From positions 1 through 46,501 of the forward strand of contig JACRFW010000027.1 of NCBI GenBank assembly GCA_016234265.1: DNA of 46,501 bases. Direction: 5' to 3'. The notes beneath the pieces are model-generated. The model had not been told where the DNA came from. It made no database searches and saw nothing but the letters and a program-made list of their open reading frames with translations. The number at the start of each line of letters is the position of its first letter. The stretch's first letter is position 1. The stretch comes from Candidatus Magasanikiibacteriota bacterium (lineage in GTDB: Bacteria > Patescibacteriota > Patescibacteriia > Magasanikbacterales > GWA2-37-8). Below, one piece after another: positions 6,175-46,501 of this stretch. The position numbers and the translations under genes are program-made.

Positions 6175-6288
6175 TGTCATTCTGAACCCCTTTACGGGGT
6201 GAAGAATCTTCCGCTTATGCCATCGTGTGGTAATTGAGGCATAAAAGGAAGATCCTTCATCCCGAATACTCGGGATTCAGGATGACAG
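6175..6288. repeat. Palindromic repeat element, copy A: TGTCATTCTGA arm, CCCC-TTTAC-GGGG hairpin, GAAGAATCTTCC box, spacer, GGAAGATCCTTC box, TCCCGA-ATAC-TCGGGA hairpin, TCAGGATGACA arm
   Basis: Nested inverted repeat lying 1 nt past the grpE stop. The left 47 nt are identical to copy B. Confidence 0.8.
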
Positions 6289-7545: not shown

Positions 7546-7572
7546 TTATCACTCTTTACCTTTGAGTGATAA
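7546..7572. promoter_or_regulatory. CIRCE-like operator TTATCACTC-N9-GAGTGATAA
   Basis: Perfect 9-bp inverted repeat with a 9-nt spacer, matching 8 of 9 per arm to the CIRCE consensus TTAGCACTC-N9-GAGTGCTAA. It lies between the promoter -10 and the hrcA start. Confidence 0.75.
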
Positions 7573-7599
7573 TATACCGTTTCCCCTGTCCCCTGTCAA
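7571..7599 (-). promoter_or_regulatory. Sigma70-type promoter for the hrcA-grpE-dnaK operon (TTGACA, 17 nt, TATATT)
   Basis: Minus strand reads cccTTGACAggggacaggggaaacggTATATT, then CIRCE. Confidence 0.6.
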
Positions 7600-7624: not shown

Positions 7625-7724
7625 CTGTCATTCTGAACCCCTTTACGGGGTGAAGAATCTTCCGCTTATGCCCGTAGCGAATTTGGTAATCGGAAGATCC
7701 TTCGGTCGCGAGGGCTCTGGATGA
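7625..7724. repeat. Palindromic repeat element, copy B
   Basis: Same left half as copy A (47 nt identical) and the same GGAAGATCCTTC box. The right-hand hairpin differs and the right arm is TGGATGACA. Confidence 0.8.
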
Positions 7725-7735
7725 CAATTAAAACA

Positions 7736-8396: not shown

Positions 8397-8469
8397 TGTC
8401 ATCCTGAACGAAGTGAAGGATCCCTTGCGTCTGTGTTTAAGGGATTCTTCGTTTCACTCAGAATGACAG
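8397..8469. repeat. Palindromic repeat element, copy E (TGTCATCCTGA ... TCAGAATGACA, about 73-nt imperfect palindrome)
   Basis: Arms plus an inner ACGAAGTGAAGGATCCCTT / AAGGGATTCTTCGTTTCAC inverted repeat, 8 nt past the yidC stop. Confidence 0.75.
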
Positions 8470-9301: not shown

Positions 9302-10228
9302 ATGAAAATACGAACATTTTTAATTATAGCGGCCCTTTTGGCATTCTTGGCTATTACTTACTTTACAATGACGACCGGGACAAGAAATAGACCACCCGCA
9401 GTGGCAAACAAATTGCGTGTCGTCACCTCGTTCTACCCGCTCTACTACTTTGCTACCCAAATTGCCGGAGACAAGGCAATTGTTTATAACATTACTCCGG
9501 CCGGGGCCGAACCGCACGACTACGAGCCCACGACCCAGGATATGGCCCACATTGAAGATAGCAAGCTGTTGATACTGAACGGCGGCAAGCTGGAAGCCTG
9601 GGGAGATAAAGTAAAAAATACGCTTCAGAACACTGCCACTATTATTGTCTCTGTCGGAGACGATATCGCCAACCAGAAAGTAATTGAGGACGGAGAAACG
9701 GTGCGCGACCCGCATGTATGGCTTGACCCTGTACTCGCTAAAAAAGAGGCGACGACGATCGCCGACAGTCTGGCGGCGGTTGACCCCGCCAACGCGAACT
9801 TCTATGAAAATAACGCCACGCAACTCCTGGCCAAGCTCGATGCTTTAGACCAAAAATATCGGCAGGATTTGAGCAGCTGCAAACAAAAAAATATCGCCAC
9901 CGCGCACACCGCCTTCGGATATTTGGCCCGCGAGTATGAGTTTGAGCAGATAGCGATTTCCGGCTTGTCTCCTGATGCTGAACCCTCGGCCAAAAAACTA
10001 GCTGACGTTACTGATTATGTTAAAAAACATAACATAAAATATATTTTTTTTGAAAGTTTGGTGAGCCCGAAGCTCGCCGAGACGCTGGCGTATGAAACCG
10101 GGGCCAAGACGCTTGTTTTGAACCCTCTTGAGGGTTTGACGAATCAAGAAATTGCGCAGGGGCAGGATTATTTCACGGTAATGAGAAATAATCTCAAGAA
10201 TCTCCAAACGGCGCTTGATTGTAAGTGA
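9302..10228 (+). CDS. Metal (Zn/Mn) ABC transporter substrate-binding protein, ZnuA/TroA family
   Basis: Signal/TM start, SFYPLYYFA, GAEPHDYEP and DPHVWLDP motifs of the cluster A-I SBPs. No permease or ATPase gene is adjacent. Confidence 0.85.
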   Translation: MKIRTFLIIAALLAFLAITYFTMTTGTRNRPPAVANKLRVVTSFYPLYYFATQIAGDKAIVYNITPAGAEPHDYEPTTQDMAHIEDSKLLILNGGKLEAWGDKVKNTLQNTATIIVSVGDDIANQKVIEDGETVRDPHVWLDPVLAKKEATTIADSLAAVDPANANFYENNATQLLAKLDALDQKYRQDLSSCKQKNIATAHTAFGYLAREYEFEQIAISGLSPDAEPSAKKLADVTDYVKKHNIKYIFFESLVSPKLAETLAYETGAKTLVLNPLEGLTNQEIAQGQDYFTVMRNNLKNLQTALDCK

Positions 10229-21062: not shown

Positions 21063-21152
21063 TGGCGGAAGGGAGGAGATTTGAACTCCTGAAGGTTTTG
21101 ACACCTTGCGTGCTTTCCAAGCACGTGCACTAGACCGCTATGCGACCCTTCC
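21063..21152 (-). tRNA. tRNA-Ser (anticodon GGA), type II with long variable arm; CCA encoded
   Basis: Manual fold: 7-bp acceptor, 3-bp D stem, anticodon loop UU-GGA-AA, a 16-nt variable arm, and T loop TTCAAAT. Confidence 0.85.
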
Positions 21153-21177: not shown

Positions 21178-21215
21178 GGGATCCTTCTCCCGACTGAGTC
21201 GGGATCAGGATGACA
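21178..21215. repeat. Palindromic repeat element, half-copy D (GGATCCTTC box, TCCCGAC-TGA-GTCGGGA hairpin, TCAGGATGACA arm)
   Basis: It is the exact reverse complement of the hairpin in copy C. The arm overlaps the lgt stop codon. Confidence 0.7.
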
Positions 21216-21996
21216 TCGGTTTGTTTTGCCGTTTGAGTCTAACAGAAATAAGGCTCGCCGTCAACGCAACCACGATGAGAAGCATGCCCCACTGCGCCGG
21301 GGTGAGCTGCGCGTAGCGAATGTCGCTGCCGGGCAGGTCGGTGGCGCGCAAAAAATCCAGAAAAAAACGACTGACCGCATAGAGCAGGCTGGAAAGTGTC
21401 GCCACCAGACCCCAGCGCATTTTGACCAACCGCTGGAACGACAGGGCGAAGATAATGAAAAGCACGAAGCCAAGTATGGACTCGTAGAGCCCCAGGTCGT
21501 GACGAGCGCCGCCGGGATAATTTACGGACAGCAGAAAATGCGACAGCGTACCCAGGTGGTCGTGAATAAGAAAACACCCGATACGCCCAATGCCCCAACC
21601 GAGCCAGAGGCCAAGAGCCGCGATGTCGCAATACGGCACAAACTCTTTCCAACTAAATTTGCGCCGTTTGGCGAAGAGCCAGGCTCCGAGCGCGGCCCCG
21701 ATGAACCCGCCAAACGACGATGCTCCCCCGCTCCAAACGGCGAATATCTCCGCGGGGTGAAGAAGGAAATAATCCAGGTTGTAAAAAACCACGTGAAAGA
21801 GCCGGGCGAAAATAAACGCCGGAATGAGGCACCAGAGCGTGAGGTCTAAAACGACTTCGGGAGAGAGAAAATATTTTTTCGCGAGCCACTGCATAAGAAG
21901 GACGGCCGCGACAATGCCCAGCGCCACCATGAGCCCCCACACCTGAATGGGGACGGGGCCGATGAGAATGGCGTTGTATTGGAAGTACGGGATCAT
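21205..21996 (-). CDS. lgt: Prolipoprotein diacylglyceryl transferase
   Basis: Multi-TM protein with the Lgt signature region GRIGCFLIHDHLG. Confidence 0.9.
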   Translation of the reverse strand: MIPYFQYNAILIGPVPIQVWGLMVALGIVAAVLLMQWLAKKYFLSPEVVLDLTLWCLIPAFIFARLFHVVFYNLDYFLLHPAEIFAVWSGGASSFGGFIGAALGAWLFAKRRKFSWKEFVPYCDIAALGLWLGWGIGRIGCFLIHDHLGTLSHFLLSVNYPGGARHDLGLYESILGFVLFIIFALSFQRLVKMRWGLVATLSSLLYAVSRFFLDFLRATDLPGSDIRYAQLTPAQWGMLLIVVALTASLISVRLKRQNKPMSS

Positions 21997-22038: not shown

Positions 22039-22137
22039 TGTCATTCCCCTGAAAAGGGGAATCCATGACTCTACTTTGTTCAACAATAGATTCCCGCTGG
22101 AGTTTACACTCACGAAAGTGGGTGCGGGAATGACAGT
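22039..22137. repeat. Palindromic repeat element, copy F (TGTCATTCCC arm ... GCGGGAATGACA)
   Basis: Matching outer arms with inner GGGG/CCCC hairpins. It lies 1 nt past the LOG-gene stop. Confidence 0.7.
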
Positions 22138-22138
22138 C

Positions 22139-23506
22139 CTATTTTAAATGCGACATAATATCGTCGGGACGATCAATAAATTTCAAGAATGACTCGTCAA
22201 TCTGACTGATGGTTTTGAATTTCACATTTAAATTATGAACAATATCAATCAGCGGTTGCCAGAACTCCCGCCCGTAAAGAATAATGGGCAGCGGTTCTAT
22301 TTTTTTCGTTTCTTGGAGCGTCAGCAATTCAAAAAGCTGATGGAGCGTGCCAAAACCGCCGGGGAAAAAAACAAAGGCCTCGGACGGGGCGGTGATAATG
22401 AGCTTGCGCACAAAGGGGAAAGAGAAGCTGATTGATCTGGTCAAGTAGTTATTCACCCGTTCATGTCCTTTAAAATGCACATTGATGCCGATGCTCTCCC
22501 CCCCATTCTCAAACGCGCCTTTGTTGGCGGCCTCCATAATGCCCGGGCCGCCGCCGGTAATAACCATGTGTTTGCTCTTAGCGAGTACCGCCCCCAGTTC
22601 GTTGGCGGCTTGATAATATGCTGAACCCGGGAGCACGCTCTTGGTGCCAAGCACCGTGACATCATGTTTAACTTTCGTCAAAAATTCAAATCCTTCCACC
22701 AATTCAGCCATGATGCGGAACACCCGCCAATCGGCGGCCCCCTCAAAATACAACGGACCGTTGGCCACTCCCCAGACATCAGAGTTATCGGTCGTATCTT
22801 TTATAAAGGAGAAAGCTTCTTCAGCCGTTTCCACCATGTGCCAGTCGGCAATATCTTTCTCGGACAACGAGTGCGCGAGCGCGATTGATTTTTGCTTTAA
22901 GAAATCCACAATCGGCTGCCAATATTCCCGACCGACCAGCACAATCGGAGTTTTTTCCATGAACCCCAGCTCCATGTAGTCCACCACTTCAAAAAACTCA
23001 TCCAGCGTGCCAAAGCCGCCGGGGAAAAAAACAAAAGCGTTGCCCGGGCTGGTCAGCATCACCTTGCGCGTGAAGAAATAATAGAAAGCGGTGGCTTTTT
23101 TGACGTAAGGGTTGATGCGCTGTTCAAAGGGCAGCTGAATGTTGAGGCCCACCGACTCGCCGCCGACTTCAAACGCGCCTTTGTTGGCGGCCTCCATAAT
23201 GCCCGGGCCGCCGCCGGTAATAGTGGTGAAGCCATGTTTGCCAAGTAACCGCCCGAGTTCCACGGCGACTTTGTAATATTTTTCATTGGGCGAAATGCGG
23301 GCCGAGCCGAGGACCACCACTTCTTTTTTTAGTTCGCTCAAAAATTGATAGCCTTCCACGATTTCGGTGACGATCCGAAAAATGCGCCAGGAATCGCGAT
23401 AGTTCACGGCGGCGCCAGTGGTATGAAAATGCGAGTCCGCAAGGGTTTTACCAGAAGAAACAGCCGAGGCGGGAGTGGCTGGTTGGCGCGTGGTTTTTTT
23501 GGGCAT
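22139..23506 (-). CDS. Tandem-duplicated LOG family protein (two TIGR00730-like cytokinin riboside 5'-monophosphate phosphoribohydrolase domains)
   Basis: The GGGPGIMEAANKGA motif occurs twice, with the PGGxGTxxE motif in each half. Confidence 0.85.
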   Translation of the reverse strand: MPKKTTRQPATPASAVSSGKTLADSHFHTTGAAVNYRDSWRIFRIVTEIVEGYQFLSELKKEVVVLGSARISPNEKYYKVAVELGRLLGKHGFTTITGGGPGIMEAANKGAFEVGGESVGLNIQLPFEQRINPYVKKATAFYYFFTRKVMLTSPGNAFVFFPGGFGTLDEFFEVVDYMELGFMEKTPIVLVGREYWQPIVDFLKQKSIALAHSLSEKDIADWHMVETAEEAFSFIKDTTDNSDVWGVANGPLYFEGAADWRVFRIMAELVEGFEFLTKVKHDVTVLGTKSVLPGSAYYQAANELGAVLAKSKHMVITGGGPGIMEAANKGAFENGGESIGINVHFKGHERVNNYLTRSISFSFPFVRKLIITAPSEAFVFFPGGFGTLHQLFELLTLQETKKIEPLPIILYGREFWQPLIDIVHNLNVKFKTISQIDESFLKFIDRPDDIMSHLK

Positions 23507-23524
23507 AGATAATTATTTTACGTC

Positions 23525-23609
23525 TGTCATTCCCAACTTGATTGGGAATCCATCATTCAACATTTCTAAAACTCTTGCTATGGATTCCCGCTTTTGCGGG
23601 AATGACACA
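23525..23609. repeat. Palindromic repeat element, copy G (nested: TGTCATTCCC/GGGAATGACA arms, GGGAATCCAT/ATGGATTCCC inner repeat, two small hairpins)
   Basis: 3 nt past the gatA stop. Confidence 0.75.
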
Positions 23610-31204: not shown

Positions 31205-31291
31205 AGGAATAATATTGAATACTAAATGCTAAACATCAAATACCGAATGGCACAATGCATTGTTCGGTATTTAACATTTGATGTTCGGTGT

Positions 31292-32590
31292 TTATGGCTT
31301 GTTCATCCAGCTTTCTTCCTGCCGCACCAGAAGAGTAGCTGCTTCCAGCGGCTCGGCCATCACCTCTTTGACAATTTTCTCCATGCGCGAACCTTGGGAG
31401 CCTTTCACCAAAATAATATCGCCCGTGTTTAATTGTTCCTGTAAAAATTTTCCGGCGGCAGCCGAGTTATCAAAACGGGCAATGCGGTGTTCCTCAAATC
31501 CGGCCTCGCGGGCCGCGGCGGCCGTAATTTTTGAGGCCTCCCCGACCGTAATGAGAAAATCAATGCCAAGCTCGGCTACTTTGAAACCAATTTCGCGGTG
31601 CGCGGTTTCGGTTTCCGGGCCCAGCTCCAGCATATCGCCCAAGACAGCGTAGCGCTCGGAGCCCGCGGGCACGGGAATGCTCGCGAGCGTATCCAGGGCC
31701 GCCTTGGCCGCGACCGGGCTGGAATTGTAGGTATCATCAATGAGGAGGGTATTTTTAATGCCAGAGAGCAGGCGCAGGTGCCCCGGCAAAGAAACAAACT
31801 GCCGCAAAGACTCCGCAGCTTCAACCAAATTTATACCAAAAATACTTCCGACCGCGATGGCGGCGAGAGCTGACGGAATAAGGCTCTCACTCAAAGCGCC
31901 GGGTAAAAATACCGGCACAATATTTCCTTTGTAGTGAACTTTAAAATTCAAGCCCGTTGGTCGGAAGCCCGAAGCGTCGCATAGCACGTTCACGTCAGTC
32001 GCCCGAATGGCCGCGCCTTCCTTCAATCCATAGGTTAAAACTTCCGCCTTGGTAGCGCCCGCCTCCTCCATCACCAACTCATTATCAAAATTCAAAACGG
32101 CAAAACCATCGCGCCGGAGATGCGAGATGATAATTCTTTTTTCCTGGGCGATTTTTTTAATGGTTTTAAAAAATTCAGTATGCGCGTGCGAAATGGCGGT
32201 GAGCACTCCCACGGTGCACGGCGCCATTTCGGTGAGATATTGAATGTCCCCGGGTCGGTCGGCGCCCATTTCTAACACGAGCGTTTTTGGATAGTTGGCA
32301 TCGCGAACAATGAGTAAACGCAAAGCTTGGGCAAAAACCATAAACCAACCGAGAATTGAATGGCCGGGAGTTTTGGCCACGCCAATAATGGTCAGCGGCA
32401 CGCCGACCTGGTTGTTATAATTTTTGGCGCTGGCGCGAACGTCAAAACGTGATTCCAACACCATACGAATAGCCTCTTTGGCCGAGGTCTTCCCCACCGA
32501 CCCGGTAATGCCAATCACATCAGGATGATATTTTCTAATAATGGCCGAAGAGAACTTTTTAAGAAAATAGTGCAATATAGAAATAAGCAT
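31292..32590 (-). CDS. murF: UDP-N-acetylmuramoyl-tripeptide--D-alanyl-D-alanine ligase
   Basis: Mur ligase P-loop GITGSVGKTSAKE and the MurF-type LIDDTYNSSP motif. Confidence 0.85.
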   Translation of the reverse strand: MLISILHYFLKKFSSAIIRKYHPDVIGITGSVGKTSAKEAIRMVLESRFDVRASAKNYNNQVGVPLTIIGVAKTPGHSILGWFMVFAQALRLLIVRDANYPKTLVLEMGADRPGDIQYLTEMAPCTVGVLTAISHAHTEFFKTIKKIAQEKRIIISHLRRDGFAVLNFDNELVMEEAGATKAEVLTYGLKEGAAIRATDVNVLCDASGFRPTGLNFKVHYKGNIVPVFLPGALSESLIPSALAAIAVGSIFGINLVEAAESLRQFVSLPGHLRLLSGIKNTLLIDDTYNSSPVAAKAALDTLASIPVPAGSERYAVLGDMLELGPETETAHREIGFKVAELGIDFLITVGEASKITAAAAREAGFEEHRIARFDNSAAAGKFLQEQLNTGDIILVKGSQGSRMEKIVKEVMAEPLEAATLLVRQEESWMNKP

Positions 32591-43063: not shown

Positions 43064-44377
43064 ATGACTGGCAATTCTTTAACCTTTCTTCGGGGGCCTG
43101 TAGTGTACGTCTGCCGGGACATGGAACGAGCCCTGGGCCTACCACTTTCCACACAGAATTACTTCATCATAACAAACTCCAGCGCTTTTGCGAAGAGTGT
43201 AGCCGCGAAGAACAGAAACATCCTCCTGATCGTTGAAAACGCGCCTCTGGATACGCGCGACCTCTTGGCTCACCCCAAAACAGCCGCGTGGCTGAATAGG
43301 TTGCCCAATCCAAAAATTTTGGTCTTTAAAAATACTACTCAAATAGAAAAACTGTGCCGAGATAAAGGGTGGCAGCTCCTGAACCCGCCCGCGGAACTGG
43401 CCAAACGAGTGGAGGAAAAGATTTCCCAGCTCACTTGGCTCGGCCCCCTCCAAAAATATTTACCGCCACATAAAGTTATGCTCTGCAAAGATCTGGAATG
43501 GTCCAAAAAAAAACTTGCCCGGCACCGAACCGGAGGTTCCGGTGCTGGGTATATCGTGCAATTCAACCATGCGCACACGGGGCTTGGCACCATACTCATC
43601 AATTCGGCTCAATCGCTGGTTGAACTGAAGAAAAAATTTCCTAAGCGCAGTGTCCGCGTCACGGATTTTGTCAGCGGGCCGGCATTGACCAACAACAACG
43701 TCGTGTGGGGAAAACACGTGCTGATTGGAAACATCAATTACCAAATAACTGGATTAGCACCATTCACTAAGAGCCCATTTACTACCGTTGGTAATGATTG
43801 GGCACTGCCGAAGCACCTTATGCAGAGTAAACAAATTAGGCGGTTTAAGCAGATAGCTACCAACGTCGGGAAAAAGCTAGCCAAAGACGGCTGGCGCGGA
43901 CTATTTGGCATTGATACTATTTTGGATGAAAAAACCGACAAGCTGTACCTCATTGAGATCAATGCGCGACAGCCAGCATCAACGACGTTTGAATCACAAT
44001 TACAAGAAAACAAAAAAACAATAAAGCAAAAAAATAACGCAACGACGTTTGAAGCGCATTTGGCGGCATTACTGGGCCTTCCTTACAAAAAACAAAAACT
44101 AATTGCCATAACAGACGGAGCGCAGATTATACAGAGAATACCGAATACCGAACAACAAATATTAAATACCGAATACCGAATACCGAATCACAAACGACTA
44201 GCAAAAAGAATTAACGGATTAAAAGATTGCAAGATTATTGAATACGAAAATACCACCCCGGGGAGTGACTGGCTACGCATTCAGAGTAAAGCGGGTATTA
44301 TGGCCGGGCATAACAAGTTTAATAAGTTGGGAAAAAATATTCAAAATGACACCTACTATGTTATCACCAAAAGCTGA
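43064..44377 (+). CDS. ATP-grasp domain protein (D-Ala-D-Ala ligase-like C-terminal fold) with a repeat-containing C-terminal extension
   Basis: Gly-rich TGGSGAGYIV and GLFGIDTILDEKTDKLYLIEINARQPAST (compare the Ddl region RVDF..edg..YlnEvNT.PG.T). The C-terminus contains a TTFE duplication and a heptanucleotide SSR. Confidence 0.75.
   Translation: MTGNSLTFLRGPVVYVCRDMERALGLPLSTQNYFIITNSSAFAKSVAAKNRNILLIVENAPLDTRDLLAHPKTAAWLNRLPNPKILVFKNTTQIEKLCRDKGWQLLNPPAELAKRVEEKISQLTWLGPLQKYLPPHKVMLCKDLEWSKKKLARHRTGGSGAGYIVQFNHAHTGLGTILINSAQSLVELKKKFPKRSVRVTDFVSGPALTNNNVVWGKHVLIGNINYQITGLAPFTKSPFTTVGNDWALPKHLMQSKQIRRFKQIATNVGKKLAKDGWRGLFGIDTILDEKTDKLYLIEINARQPASTTFESQLQENKKTIKQKNNATTFEAHLAALLGLPYKKQKLIAITDGAQIIQRIPNTEQQILNTEYRIPNHKRLAKRINGLKDCKIIEYENTTPGSDWLRIQSKAGIMAGHNKFNKLGKNIQNDTYYVITKS
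44138..44186 (+). repeat. Heptanucleotide tandem repeat (ATACCGA)2, 14 nt degenerate, then (ATACCGA)3, inside the ATP-grasp coding region
   Basis: Read directly from the sequence. It encodes ...RIPNTEQQILNTEYRIPNH. Confidence 0.85.
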
Positions 44378-46275: not shown

Positions 46276-46330
46276 TGTCATTCAGATCCCGACTCAGTCG
46301 GGAGAAGAATCTTCCGCTTATGCACTCGTA
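46276..46330. repeat. Palindromic repeat element, copy C, left half only (TGTCATTCAGA arm, TCCCGAC-TCA-GTCGGGA hairpin, GAAGAATCTTCCGCTTATGC box), followed directly by a GIY-YIG gene
   Basis: It shares the 20-nt GAAGAATCTTCCGCTTATGC with copies A and B. Its hairpin is the reverse complement of the one in copy D. Confidence 0.75.
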
Positions 46331-46343
46331 TTACGTTTACATC

Positions 46344-46501
46344 ATGGCGAGTGCTAGCGAAGTGATATATATTGGTGTAACCAATGATATCCAGAGGAGA
46401 ATCTCGGAGCACAAGCAAAAGTTGGTTGAGGGGTTTACCCAACAATACAATTGTACTAAGCTAATCTACTACGAAGATTTTTCTGACATTAACGAGGCAA
46501 T
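46344..46501 (+). CDS. GIY-YIG nuclease family protein (partial, N-terminal 52 aa)
   Basis: VIYIGVTNDIQRRISEHKQK...LIYYEDFSDINEA is the typical small stand-alone GIY-YIG domain. It runs off the window edge. Confidence 0.75.
   Translation, partial: MASASEVIYIGVTNDIQRRISEHKQKLVEGFTQQYNCTKLIYYEDFSDINEA

What the first reader, a model, noticed from the sequence alone, without database searches (positions are those of the whole stretch)
46276..46501. A GIY-YIG nuclease gene sits inside one repeat copy; copies A and B look like the unoccupied version of the same site
- In copy C, the left half (arm, hairpin, GAAGAATCTTCCGCTTATGC) is followed 14 nt later by the start of a small GIY-YIG ORF.
- Copies A and B carry the identical 20-nt box, a roughly 20-nt spacer, and then the right half.
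- So the GIY-YIG gene occupies exactly the position of the short spacer between the two halves.
- This would be expected if the palindrome is either the homing target or the terminal structure of a GIY-YIG-carrying selfish element.
- The short copies would then be empty sites or non-autonomous derivatives.
- If so, a right half (GGAAGATCCTTC, hairpin, TCAGGATGACA) should sit just past the GIY-YIG stop, beyond the window edge.
Basis: partly seen in the sequence, partly recalled or inferred. Interest (0 to 1): 0.7.

Follow-up and report, generated by a model that had tools for sequence, protein, structure and literature searches.

The report
Ssn ssDNA-nuclease cassette and hairpin repeats
The contig ends in the start of a small GIY-YIG nuclease gene of the Ssn family (described in 2025), preceded by the DNA hairpin repeat such nucleases recognise, and the two short "copies" are gene-less pairs of that repeat; this is a known kind of system, seen here in a candidate-phyla bacterium.

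Summary
The ORF starts at the ATG at 46320, inside the 20-nt box, not 14 nt after it. The window is a complete 46,501-bp contig of a Candidatus Magasanikbacteria MAG, so nothing beyond 46501 can be read.

At the orthologous locus of a relative (MraY 88% identical, same gene order) the gene is 95 aa. The predicted right half (GGAAGATCCTTC, hairpin, TCTGGATAACA) follows its stop codon directly. Two further close homologues at other genomic sites are bracketed the same way.

The protein is 46% identical (E=2e-25) to the Neisseria SsnA orthologue. The repeats have the determinants of Ssn-related motifs: GTC, a palindrome, then C. Chenal et al. 2025 (PMC11893778) showed these nucleases cut single-stranded DNA just 5' of such hairpins, and that the repeats flank ssn genes.

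New here:
- Relatives have the mraY junction empty, with no palindrome, so the cassette with both hairpins is the inserted unit.
- Copies A and B carry the gene's start codon and look like gene-less derivatives, not empty homing sites.
- The gene evolves under purifying selection as strong as that on mraY.

Verdict: a new member of a known kind, of modest interest.

The parts
46276..46311 (+). Left hairpin unit (class-1 Ssn-related motif) of the cassette: TGTCATTCAGA, apical stem-loop TCCCGACTCAGTCGGGA, then GAAGAATC.
   Evidence: The basal part is identical in the orthologue L090, while the apical stem-loop there is a different self-complementary sequence.
46304..46323 (+). The 20-nt box: 3' arm of the hairpin (GAAGAATC), an 8-nt leader (TTCCGCTT), and the start codon ATG plus C.
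   Evidence: Three exact copies against 0.03 expected. It is 20/20 identical in L090, although synonymous sites between the two genomes are saturated.
46320..46501 (+). The 5' part (60 codons) of the ssn gene, a single-domain GIY-YIG nuclease. It is cut off by the end of the contig.
   Evidence: Pfam GIY-YIG E=6.7e-13. 87% identical to the 95-aa orthologue P0001. 50% identical, E=2e-16, to the N. gonorrhoeae SsnA orthologue. Y7, Y17, R27 and H31 are conserved.
6175..6287 (.). Copy A, a gene-less doublet. Left unit 6175-6208 (+), box 6201-6220 including the ATG, spacer 6221-6246, inverted right unit 6251-6287 (-).
   Evidence: As single-stranded DNA it folds at -30 kcal/mol, z=-6.9. It lies between grpE and hsp20.
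7626..7726 (.). Copy B, a gene-less doublet. Left unit 7626-7659 (+), box 7652-7671, spacer 7672-7691, inverted right unit 7696-7726 (-).
   Evidence: Its left 47 nt are 100% identical to copy A (family D7). It lies between the band-7 gene and the hrcA promoter.
8397..8468 (.). Doublet of minimal class-1 units, 8397-8422 (+) and 8443-8468 (-), with 7-nt apical mini-hairpins ACGAAGT and GTGAAAC.
21180..21215 (-). Solo class-1 unit with the same apical stem-loop as copy C. It supplies the last codons and the stop codon of the lgt ORF.
   Evidence: (I1: 36 nt, 92% complementary to 46276-46311).
22039..22135 (.). Doublet of NTS-like (class-2) units, TGTCATTCCC..GGGAATC: 22039-22066 (+) and 22086-22135 (-).
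   Evidence: The unit at 22039 matches the published SRM search string.
23525..23607 (.). Doublet of NTS-like (class-2) units: 23525-23553 (+) and 23580-23607 (-). Together with the doublet at 22039-22135 it brackets the LOG/SLOG gene at 22139-23506.
   Evidence: (I14).

Best explanation
Positions 46276-46501 are the left end of an SRM-ssn-SRM cassette.

What the parts are:
- The ORF encodes a ~95-aa single-domain GIY-YIG enzyme of the Ssn family (site-specific single-stranded-DNA nucleases).
- The 'halves' are its cognate Ssn-related motifs (SRMs). Each is a DNA hairpin with a fixed GTC 5' of the stem, a conserved 5-bp basal stem (ATYCN/NGRAT) carrying a tandem G.A/G.A step, a freely variable apical stem-loop, and a fixed C 3' of the stem.

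How it works, by analogy with the characterised Neisseria and Wolbachia enzymes (inferred here):
- The protein binds the hairpin when the DNA is single-stranded, for example incoming transforming DNA or replication and repair intermediates.
- It cuts a few nucleotides 5' of the GTC.
- The two units face outwards, so each strand of the cassette carries one cleavable site at its 5' boundary.

What is shown here:
- The whole cassette, hairpins included, is an insertion between mraY and the downstream gene that several relatives lack.
- Once present, it has been inherited vertically under purifying selection as strong as that on mraY. It therefore behaves as a resident, probably domesticated, gene.

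What is inferred about the short copies: A, B and the other doublets are gene-less pairs of the same termini. They are most likely derivatives of such cassettes (A and B keep the start codon). They serve as dispersed Ssn target sites in the chromosome.
For: Protein identity:
- Pfam GIY-YIG.
- P0001, the orthologue, is 46% identical (E=2e-25) to the single homologue in N. gonorrhoeae. That homologue is 94 aa and flanked by canonical NTS repeats.
- P0001 is 48% identical (E=1e-32) to a metagenomic homologue bracketed by near-canonical NTS.

Published biochemistry and association: PMC11893778.

Cassette architecture:
- The right unit follows the stop codon directly in L090/L003, L100 and L102.
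- 33/72 upstream, 34/72 downstream and 25/72 on both sides, against 1.6% in control windows.

Constraint at the DNA level:
- The TGTCATTCAGA arm and the 20-nt box are identical between the window and L090, although synonymous sites are saturated (27 differences over 34 synonymous sites).
- The apical stem-loop is replaced by a different palindrome.
- 158 distinct units share the same base and differ in their apical hairpins.

Selection: ssn dN=0.072; mraY dN=0.079 with dS=1.02.

Insertion as a unit: the junction is empty in L107, L111, L010 and L110, and occupied by a different small gene in L104.

SRM density: at least 12 units in 46.5 kb.
Against: - The gene is truncated by the contig end. 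Its integrity, its Glu and Asn catalytic residues and its right hairpin are not observable in this genome.
- No biochemistry exists for this protein or for class-1 hairpins.
- Class-1 units do not match the degenerate SRM search string published for the family. In this window only two NTS-like units (22039 +, 23607 -) and one apparently unrelated site (10111 -) do.
- In N. gonorrhoeae the repeat downstream of ssnA is in direct, not inverted, orientation, so the inverted bracket is not universal.
- The biological role outside Neisseria is unknown.
Confidence: 0.85

Rival explanations
1. Active autonomous transposon. The ~0.4-kb SRM-ssn-SRM unit would be a currently mobile, IS-like element, with the GIY-YIG protein as its mobilising nuclease. 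Copies A and B would be its MITEs. This overlaps with the best explanation; it differs in claiming ongoing self-mobility.
For: - Terminal inverted hairpin units extend to the start and stop codons.
- Proteins 80-87% identical sit at three unrelated genomic sites: mraY|225-aa gene, prfA|sua5 and purM|purL.
- Presence is patchy at the same junction among relatives with 88-91% identical MraY.
- A and B share a 47-nt left end at 100% identity.
- The 20-nt box is identical in short copies of three different MAGs.
- The authors of the Ssn paper note the IS-like layout.
Against: - No target-site duplications are visible at any junction inspected.
- GIY-YIG enzymes are not known to join strands (own knowledge).
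- Each strand carries only one cleavable orientation.
- At this locus the gene has co-diverged with mraY to saturation of synonymous sites, under strong purifying selection.
- A and B share left halves, but their spacers and right halves differ. That does not fit simple copy-and-paste of a whole doublet.
- No second full copy was seen in any genome sampled.
Confidence: 0.3
2. Classical GIY-YIG homing endonuclease gene. It would have inserted into its own palindromic target, and A and B would be uncut empty alleles.
For: - The gene sits in the centre of a palindrome whose short versions exist elsewhere.
- Many GIY-YIG enzymes are homing endonucleases (own knowledge).
Against: - Empty versions of the same junction carry no palindrome.
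- Both hairpins are intact in occupied sites.
- The protein is a bare 95-aa catalytic domain with no DNA-binding module.
- Characterised family members do not cut double-stranded DNA.
- A and B carry the ORF's start codon and lie at non-allelic loci.
Confidence: 0.03
3. The hairpins act at the RNA level, as terminators, stabilisers or regulatory elements, and the GIY-YIG gene is an unrelated neighbour.
For: - The units are intergenic and strongly hairpin-forming.
- Copy A gives a weak hit to a long-hairpin Rfam model.
Against: - No Rfam family reaches its gathering score.
- None of the units is called terminator-like, and none has a T-run.
- The units occur in both orientations relative to transcription.
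- The minimal apical element GCGAAGC is the classic DNA mini-hairpin (own knowledge).
- The conserved GTC and C positions are those shown to matter for ssDNA binding and cleavage, and SsnA does not bind RNA.
- The association with ssn genes is far above control.
Confidence: 0.03

Closest known systems
Ssn nucleases with NTS/SRM repeats (Chenal et al. 2025, Nat Commun 16:2388, PMC11893778)
   Same: - A single-domain GIY-YIG protein of about 94-95 aa, 46% identical to the Neisseria orthologue.
- The gene is flanked by hairpin repeats with GTC 5' and C 3' of the palindrome.
- The same repeats are dispersed through the genome, including a repeat-gene-repeat layout around another gene.
   Different: - The host is a CPR bacterium (Magasanikbacteria).
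- The cassette's own hairpins are a longer class. They have a tandem G.A step and a swappable apical stem-loop, and they escape the published search string.
- The start and stop codons lie within the extended inverted termini.
- Gene-less doublets retain the start codon.
- No biochemistry has been done for this member.
REP / RAYT (REPtron, REPIN) systems
   Same: - A small nuclease gene is bracketed by inverted copies of a hairpin repeat.
- That repeat is also scattered through intergenic DNA as singlets and inverted doublets.
- It is recognised as single-stranded DNA.
- The gene is single-copy, vertically inherited and probably domesticated.
   Different: RAYTs are HUH/Y1 transposases that cut and rejoin DNA. 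This protein is a GIY-YIG hydrolytic nuclease with no known joining activity. The two are not homologous.
Neisseria dRS3 repeats and intergenic mosaic elements (NIMEs)
   Same: - Short spacers are bounded by inverted copies of the ATTCCC-N8-GGGAAT repeat.
- The window's class-2 doublets, at 22039-22135 and 23525-23607, have nearly the same core.
   Different: The host phylum is different. Class-1 doublets carry a relic of the ssn leader and start codon.
GIY-YIG homing endonucleases (I-TevI, Seg proteins)
   Same: The catalytic fold and the pattern of Tyr, Tyr, Arg and His residues.
   Different: - This protein has no DNA-binding domain.
- Family members do not cleave duplex DNA.
- The target motif is not disrupted by the gene.
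- Empty sites lack the motif.
UPF0213 / YhbQ-type small GIY-YIG proteins (PDB 1zg2, 1ywl)
   Same: Similar size and the same fold family. They are the only solved structures detectable by sequence.
   Different: Similarity is only marginal (E=4e-4 and 0.017), so this is a separate family.

Membership tests
Ssn nuclease family (GIY-YIG, cd10448) with SRM repeats | Single-domain GIY-YIG protein of about 94 aa | tested here: met
   PF01541 is the only substantial domain. The window copy is cut at residue 60. The orthologue P0001 and its closest relatives are 94-96 aa.
Ssn nuclease family (GIY-YIG, cd10448) with SRM repeats | Sequence homology to Neisseria SsnA | tested here: met
   The comparison was to the only homologue in an N. 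gonorrhoeae chromosome, which is 94 aa and NTS-flanked. P0001: 46% identity, E=2e-25. Window fragment: 50% identity, E=2e-16. The N. meningitidis protein that was assayed was not available.
Ssn nuclease family (GIY-YIG, cd10448) with SRM repeats | Assignment to CDD model cd10448 | not testable with these tools
   No CDD library is available. There was no NCBIfam hit.
Ssn nuclease family (GIY-YIG, cd10448) with SRM repeats | Gene flanked by oriented hairpin repeats with GTC 5' and C 3' of the palindrome | tested here: met
   The left unit at 46276-46311 has TGTC-ATTCA..AGAAT-C. The right unit cannot be observed because the contig ends. It is present directly after the stop codon in the orthologue and in two other close homologues.
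Ssn nuclease family (GIY-YIG, cd10448) with SRM repeats | Repeat matches the published degenerate SRM search string HGTCWYN(0-2)YYVSBRHN(0-5)WNVSBRGN(0-2)RNCYNB | tested here: not met
   No class-1 unit matches; the stem is longer and interrupted by G.A. Only the NTS-like units at 22039 (+) and 23607 (-), plus one apparently unrelated site at 10111 (-), do. The string is a search heuristic of the paper, not a definition of the family.
Ssn nuclease family (GIY-YIG, cd10448) with SRM repeats | Cleavage of single-stranded DNA only, a few nucleotides 5' of the hairpin, on one strand | not testable with these tools
   This needs purified protein and oligonucleotides.
Ssn nuclease family (GIY-YIG, cd10448) with SRM repeats | Many dispersed copies of the repeat in the genome that carries the gene | tested here: met
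   At least 12 units in 46.5 kb: 12 matches to the arm against 1.8 expected, and units listed. The whole genome was not available.
GIY-YIG homing endonuclease gene | The unoccupied allele carries the recognition site, and the insertion disrupts it | tested here: not met
   Empty mraY junctions in L107, L111, L010 and L110 have no palindrome. The hairpins are intact on both sides of the gene.
GIY-YIG homing endonuclease gene | A separate DNA-binding domain linked to the catalytic domain | tested here: not met
   The protein is 95 aa and holds the catalytic domain only.
Insertion sequence with MITE derivatives | Terminal inverted repeats bounding the coding unit, and shared by short gene-less copies | tested here: met
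Insertion sequence with MITE derivatives | Target-site duplication at insertion junctions | tested here: inconclusive
   No direct repeats are visible at about 10 junctions. Some IS families make none.
Insertion sequence with MITE derivatives | Presence/absence polymorphism at orthologous sites, and occurrence at different sites | tested here: met
   The events are old: synonymous sites are saturated.
Insertion sequence with MITE derivatives | The encoded enzyme catalyses excision and strand transfer | not testable with these tools
   No such chemistry is known for GIY-YIG nucleases (own knowledge).
REP/RAYT | HUH/Y1 (IS200/IS605-type) transposase | tested here: not met
   The protein is GIY-YIG. 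The resemblance is in architecture only.

The most novel reading that the evidence does not exclude
The SRM-ssn-SRM unit is, or recently was, a self-contained mobile element of about 0.4 kb, one of the smallest autonomous DNA elements. It would be mobilised through single-stranded DNA nicks made by a bare GIY-YIG domain, plus host repair. The gene-less doublets that keep the start codon (copies A and B) would be its MITE-like progeny. The comparative data here are the first sequence-level indications of this: empty junctions without hairpins, the same cassette at three unrelated sites, and patchy presence among close relatives. The authors of the Ssn paper raise mobility only as a hypothesis.
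Probability: 0.3. Interest if true: 0.65.

Novelty: new member of a known kind. Interest (0 to 1): 0.3.

Why it matters
That shows the signal is real, but it is not new.

What this locus adds is modest:
- It places the system in ultra-small CPR bacteria.
- It shows a hairpin class that the published search pattern misses. This class has a G.A step and a swappable apical stem, which fits the reported tolerance of the enzyme to changes at the loop end.
- It gives comparative evidence that the hairpins and the gene are gained and lost together as one unit, while the resident gene is kept by selection.

This bears on two open questions. One is whether these repeats spread by Ssn-dependent mobility. 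The other is what Ssn does outside Neisseria. New Ssn and hairpin pairs also matter as candidate site-specific ssDNA-cutting tools.

Tried and rejected
Attempts to read beyond 46501:
- An exact look-up of the MraY ORF from the GTG start found nothing, because the start was wrong.
- The neighbouring gene gave only a Logan contig that ends inside mraY.
- A look-up through GrpE gave a Logan contig that breaks inside copies A and B.
- The window proved to be the entire NCBI contig.
- The box scan of genome contigs did not contain the source genome.

RNA-level checks:
- Rfam at gathering scores gave only two tRNAs.
- Rfam at permissive E-values gave only a spurious plant miRNA-precursor hit to the long hairpin of copy A.
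- The terminator scan did not call any unit.

Other database searches:
- PDB by sequence holds no Ssn structure, only marginal UPF0213 hits.
- NCBIfam gave no hit.
- The phage collection gave no homologue.

Getting the Neisseria SsnA sequence:
- The paper's supplements are not held.
- The third protein search returned no Neisseria entry among its 120 listed hits.
- The sequence was finally obtained from gonococcal chromosomes filed as plasmids.

Method and context checks:
- The published SRM regex proved too narrow for class-1 units.
- My first loose detector was noisy. I replaced it with one that requires GTC, a 5-nt arm, its complement and then C, tested against control windows.
- The window does not contain the prfA/sua5 or purM/purL junctions, so those empty sites could not be compared.
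- I rejected chance repeat, assembly artefact, classical homing and RNA element. The reasons are given under the rival explanations.

Full report
**1. The observation**

- The 20-nt box GAAGAATCTTCCGCTTATGC occurs exactly at 6201, 7652 and 46304. A 3-mismatch mirror copy lies at 6239-6258 on the minus strand. Chance expectation is 0.03.
- The arm TGTCATYCWGA occurs 12 times against 1.8 expected.
- Copies A (6175-6287) and B (7626-7726) each consist of a left hairpin unit, the box, a spacer (26 nt in A, 20 nt in B) and an inverted right unit.
- Copy C (46276-46323) has the left unit and the box, and then runs into a GIY-YIG ORF.
- One detail is wrong, and it matters. The ORF starts at the ATG at 46320, inside the box. 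It reads MHSYYVYIMASASEVIYIGVTNDIQRRISEHKQKLVEGFTQQYNCTKLIYYEDFSDINEA and aligns with full-length homologues from residue 1. Copies A and B therefore contain the gene's leader and start codon.

**2. Where the window comes from**

- An MraY protein 88% identical to the query sits in the protein collection on a single NCBI contig of exactly 46,501 bp. The source names it as from a Candidatus Magasanikbacteria MAG (P0123). The window is therefore the whole contig, and it ends inside the nuclease gene.
- The requested check of the 300 nt beyond 46501 is impossible in this assembly.
- Short-read contigs of the same sample break inside copies A and B or inside mraY. That is typical of repeats.

**3. 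The protein**

- Pfam assigns the 60 residues to GIY-YIG at E=6.7e-13. The orthologue scores 1.4e-14.
- The family is very large: 1,665 and 7,306 database clusters in two searches. Members are almost all 94-100 aa.
- Invariant positions in the alignment (Y17, R27, E30, H31) and the nearly invariant Y7 are present in the window fragment. The conserved R-E-K and N-P-x-W motifs of the full-length proteins lie beyond the contig end. From my own knowledge of GIY-YIG enzymes, these correspond to the catalytic Tyr, Tyr, Arg, His, Glu and Asn set.

**4. The system is published**

A text search led to Chenal et al. 2025 (PMC11893778). They report:

- a family of single-domain GIY-YIG proteins of about 94 aa (Ssn, CDD cd10448), whose Neisseria meningitidis member binds the hairpin repeat NTS (CGTCATTCCCGCGMAVGCGGGAATCYRG) only as single-stranded DNA;
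- cleavage a few nucleotides upstream of the repeat, on one strand only;
- that the three bases 5' of the palindrome matter most for cutting, and the C just 3' of it matters most for binding;
- that the loop can be replaced or extended;
- that 71% of homologues have at least one Ssn-related motif (SRM) nearby, and 42% have one on both sides;
- that the NTS-ssnA-NTS layout resembles an insertion sequence and REP/RAYT systems, with mobility left as a hypothesis.

No later paper on the subject was found.

**5. Membership**

- A gonococcal chromosome filed in the plasmid collection holds a single homologue of the orthologue P0001. It is a 94-aa ORF surrounded by canonical NTS repeats.
- P0001 is 46% identical to it (E=2e-25). 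The window fragment is 50% identical (E=2e-16).
- A metagenomic homologue bracketed by near-canonical NTS is 48% identical (E=1e-32).
- The only solved structures detectable by sequence are UPF0213 proteins, at marginal E-values, as expected for a separate family.

**6. Anatomy of the repeat**

- The cassette's unit is TGTC, ATYCN, GA, an apical hairpin, GA, NGRAT, C.
- In the window the apical part varies: a 4-5-bp stem in the left units of A and B, a 7-bp stem in C-left and in the solo unit at 21180-21215, and a 7-nt mini-hairpin in the doublet at 8397-8468.
- Across the window and the fetched loci I found 158 distinct units with this base. Their apical parts range from GCGAAGC-type heptamers to stems of more than 20 bp.
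- From my own knowledge, d(GCGAAGC) is the classic unusually stable DNA mini-hairpin, and tandem G.A steps are stable in DNA. That points to a DNA-level structure.
- A second class in the window is NTS-like (TGTCATTCCC..GGGAATC). It forms doublets at 22039-22135 and 23525-23607, which bracket a LOG/SLOG gene.
- Only two class-2 units (22039 +, 23607 -), plus one apparently unrelated site (10111 -), match the paper's degenerate search string. No class-1 unit does.

**7. The prediction about the right half**

- P0001 (87% identical over the 60 residues) lies on many groundwater contigs with the same gene order as the window: a 268-aa gene, mraY, ssn, a 225-aa gene, then a Mur ligase. MraY is 88% identical.
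- There the element reads TGTCATTCAGA-GGCCGCAGCC-GAAGAATCTTCCGCTT-ATG...(95 aa)...TAA-TAG-GAAGATCCTTC-hairpin-TCTGGATAACA. The next gene starts about 10 nt later.
- The gene therefore fills exactly the space between the two halves. Its start and stop codons lie within the extended inverted termini.
- P0004 (83% identical to P0001) lies between prfA and sua5. P0003 (80%) lies between purM and purL. Both are bracketed in the same way.
- In 72 more distant family loci with enough flank, a strict detector was used: GTC, a 5-nt arm, its exact complement, then C. It finds an outward-facing unit upstream in 33, downstream in 34, on both sides in 25 and on at least one side in 42. Control windows from the same loci score 1.6%. 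With one mismatch allowed, both sides score 33/72 and either side 56/72, against 11% in controls.

**8. Constraint and selection**

- Between the window and L090, ssn shows 27 synonymous differences over 34 synonymous sites (saturated). It shows 10 non-synonymous differences over 146 sites (dN=0.072).
- mraY shows dN=0.079 and dS=1.02. The gene has therefore co-diverged with its neighbour under strong purifying selection.
- Against this saturated background, the 11-nt arm and the 20-nt box are identical in the two genomes. The apical stem-loop has been replaced by an unrelated palindrome.
- This is the pattern expected if the protein reads the base of the hairpin and its flanks. It agrees with the published mutagenesis.

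**9. Empty sites**

The mraY|downstream-gene junction was examined in relatives:

| Locus | MraY identity to L090 | State of the junction |
|---|---|---|
| L107 | 78% | TAG-ctt-ATG, empty |
| L111 | 77% | 1 nt between the genes, empty |
| L010 | 70% | TAA-acaac-ATG, empty |
| L110 | 91% | 29 nt of a TAAGCA-type repeat, no SRM |
| L104 | 90% | 122-aa 23S-rRNA-IVS/bAvd four-helix gene with TAAGCAGATTAAGCA-like inverted flanks |
| L105 | 79% | decayed remnant of that gene |

- L090 keeps a piece of that flank just upstream of its left SRM.
- An MraY neighbour-joining tree gives (window,(L104,(L090,L110))) with short internal branches.
- The cassette, hairpins included, is therefore present or absent as one unit. 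The unoccupied junction carries no palindrome. The distribution needs at least two gain or loss events.

**10. What copies A and B are**

- They are not empty alleles of the copy C site. They lie in the heat-shock region, in the order band-7 gene | B | hrcA, grpE | A | hsp20.
- They share with the cassette the leader and start codon on the left, and the GGAAGATCC inner flank on the right.
- Seven short copies from three MAGs keep the exact box, followed by a C where the cassettes have an A. They share a loose spacer pattern.
- This fits gene-less derivatives of a cassette (MITE-like), or proliferating pairs of termini.
- One thing is not explained. A and B are 100% identical over their left 47 nt, but their spacers and right units differ. 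That suggests exchange between units, or movement of single units rather than whole doublets.

**11. Mechanism**

- Shown here: homology to Ssn; the hairpin architecture; DNA-level constraint on the hairpin base; the cassette as an indel unit; purifying selection; and dense dispersed units.
- Inferred from the published enzymes: the protein binds the extruded hairpin in single-stranded DNA and cuts 5' of the GTC. With outward-facing units, each strand then has one cut site at the cassette's 5' boundary.
- Inferred and uncertain: the biological role. In Neisseria it is restriction of repeat-bearing transforming DNA. CPR bacteria are thought to depend on DNA uptake (own knowledge).
- Also uncertain is whether Ssn cleavage plus host repair spreads the units.
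- I put 0.85 on 'Ssn-family cassette with cognate SRMs', and about 0.3 on the stronger claim of self-mobility.
- Classical homing and RNA-level explanations are each at about 0.03, for the reasons listed under the rivals.

**12. Verdict**

The system is already described, so this is a new member of a known kind.
- The added value is the CPR host, a hairpin class outside the published search pattern, the start and stop codons lying within the termini, and comparative evidence for gain and loss of the unit.
- Interest: 0.3.

Noticed in passing
window 22039-22135 and 23525-23607: Two inverted doublets of NTS-like hairpin units (TGTCATTCCC..GGGAATCYAT) bracket ORF 22139-23506 (-). The ORF is a tandem LOG/SLOG protein (PF03641 plus PF18306) with an internal 660-nt duplication. 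This is the repeat-gene-repeat layout reported around Neisseria genes. No cognate class-2 ssn gene is on this contig.
   Followed up: partly
L104 3614-4052; L105 3614-3861; L110 2513-2541; L090 2440-2465: The mraY|downstream-gene junction is an insertion hot spot in Magasanikbacteria. Besides the ssn cassette, it can hold a 122-aa 23S-rRNA-intervening-sequence/bAvd four-helix-bundle gene. That gene is flanked by TAAGCAGATTAAGCA-like inverted repeats. It is intact in L104 and decayed in L105, and only flank remnants remain in L110 and L090. It looks like a second small cassette type competing for the same site.
   Followed up: partly
window 8408-8414 and 8451-8457; many loci: The minimal apical element of the class-1 units is GCGAAGC, GCGNAGC, ACGAAGT or GTGAAAC. 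This is the sequence type of the classic ultra-stable DNA mini-hairpin. It is set between tandem G.A steps. Longer units replace it with arbitrary G+C-rich stems.
   Followed up: partly
window 21180-21215 (-) and ORF 21205-21996 (-): A solo hairpin unit next to a tRNA gene (21066-21152) provides the last codons and the stop codon (..C-H-P-stop) of the lgt (prolipoprotein diacylglyceryl transferase) ORF. Several database proteins likewise read through such units (for example ..CHPEQSEGS.., ..EDPSLRSG).
   Followed up: no
window 6175-6221 vs 7626-7672: The left 47 nt of copies A and B are 100% identical, but their spacers and right units differ strongly. This hints at exchange or conversion between units only 1.45 kb apart, or at mobility of single units rather than doublets.
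   Followed up: no
window 7550-7599: A CIRCE-like inverted repeat (CACTC-N9-GAGTG, 7550-7568) and a good -35/-10 match (7599-7571, minus strand) lie between copy B and hrcA. Copy B therefore sits just upstream of the heat-shock operon's control region.
   Followed up: no
window 31211-31292 and 44137-44188: AATACCGAAT-type simple repeats occur in direct and inverted arrangement (D4 and I4). The second set lies in the 3' end of the 437-aa ATP-grasp ORF, which is about 28 aa longer than its 409-aa homologue in L104. Similar repeats appear in L009.
   Followed up: no
L109 (N. gonorrhoeae NZ_CP119140.1, 2.17 Mb): Two complete gonococcal chromosomes are filed as 'plasmids' in the plasmid collection. 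The ssnA orthologue there carries no annotation in that table. Its downstream NTS is in direct, not inverted, orientation.
   Followed up: no
L003/L002/L005/L009 (CAZHFX01...): The MAG labelled 'uncultured Gammaproteobacteria bacterium' shares gene order and 88% MraY identity with this Magasanikbacteria contig. Its taxonomic label is probably wrong.
   Followed up: no
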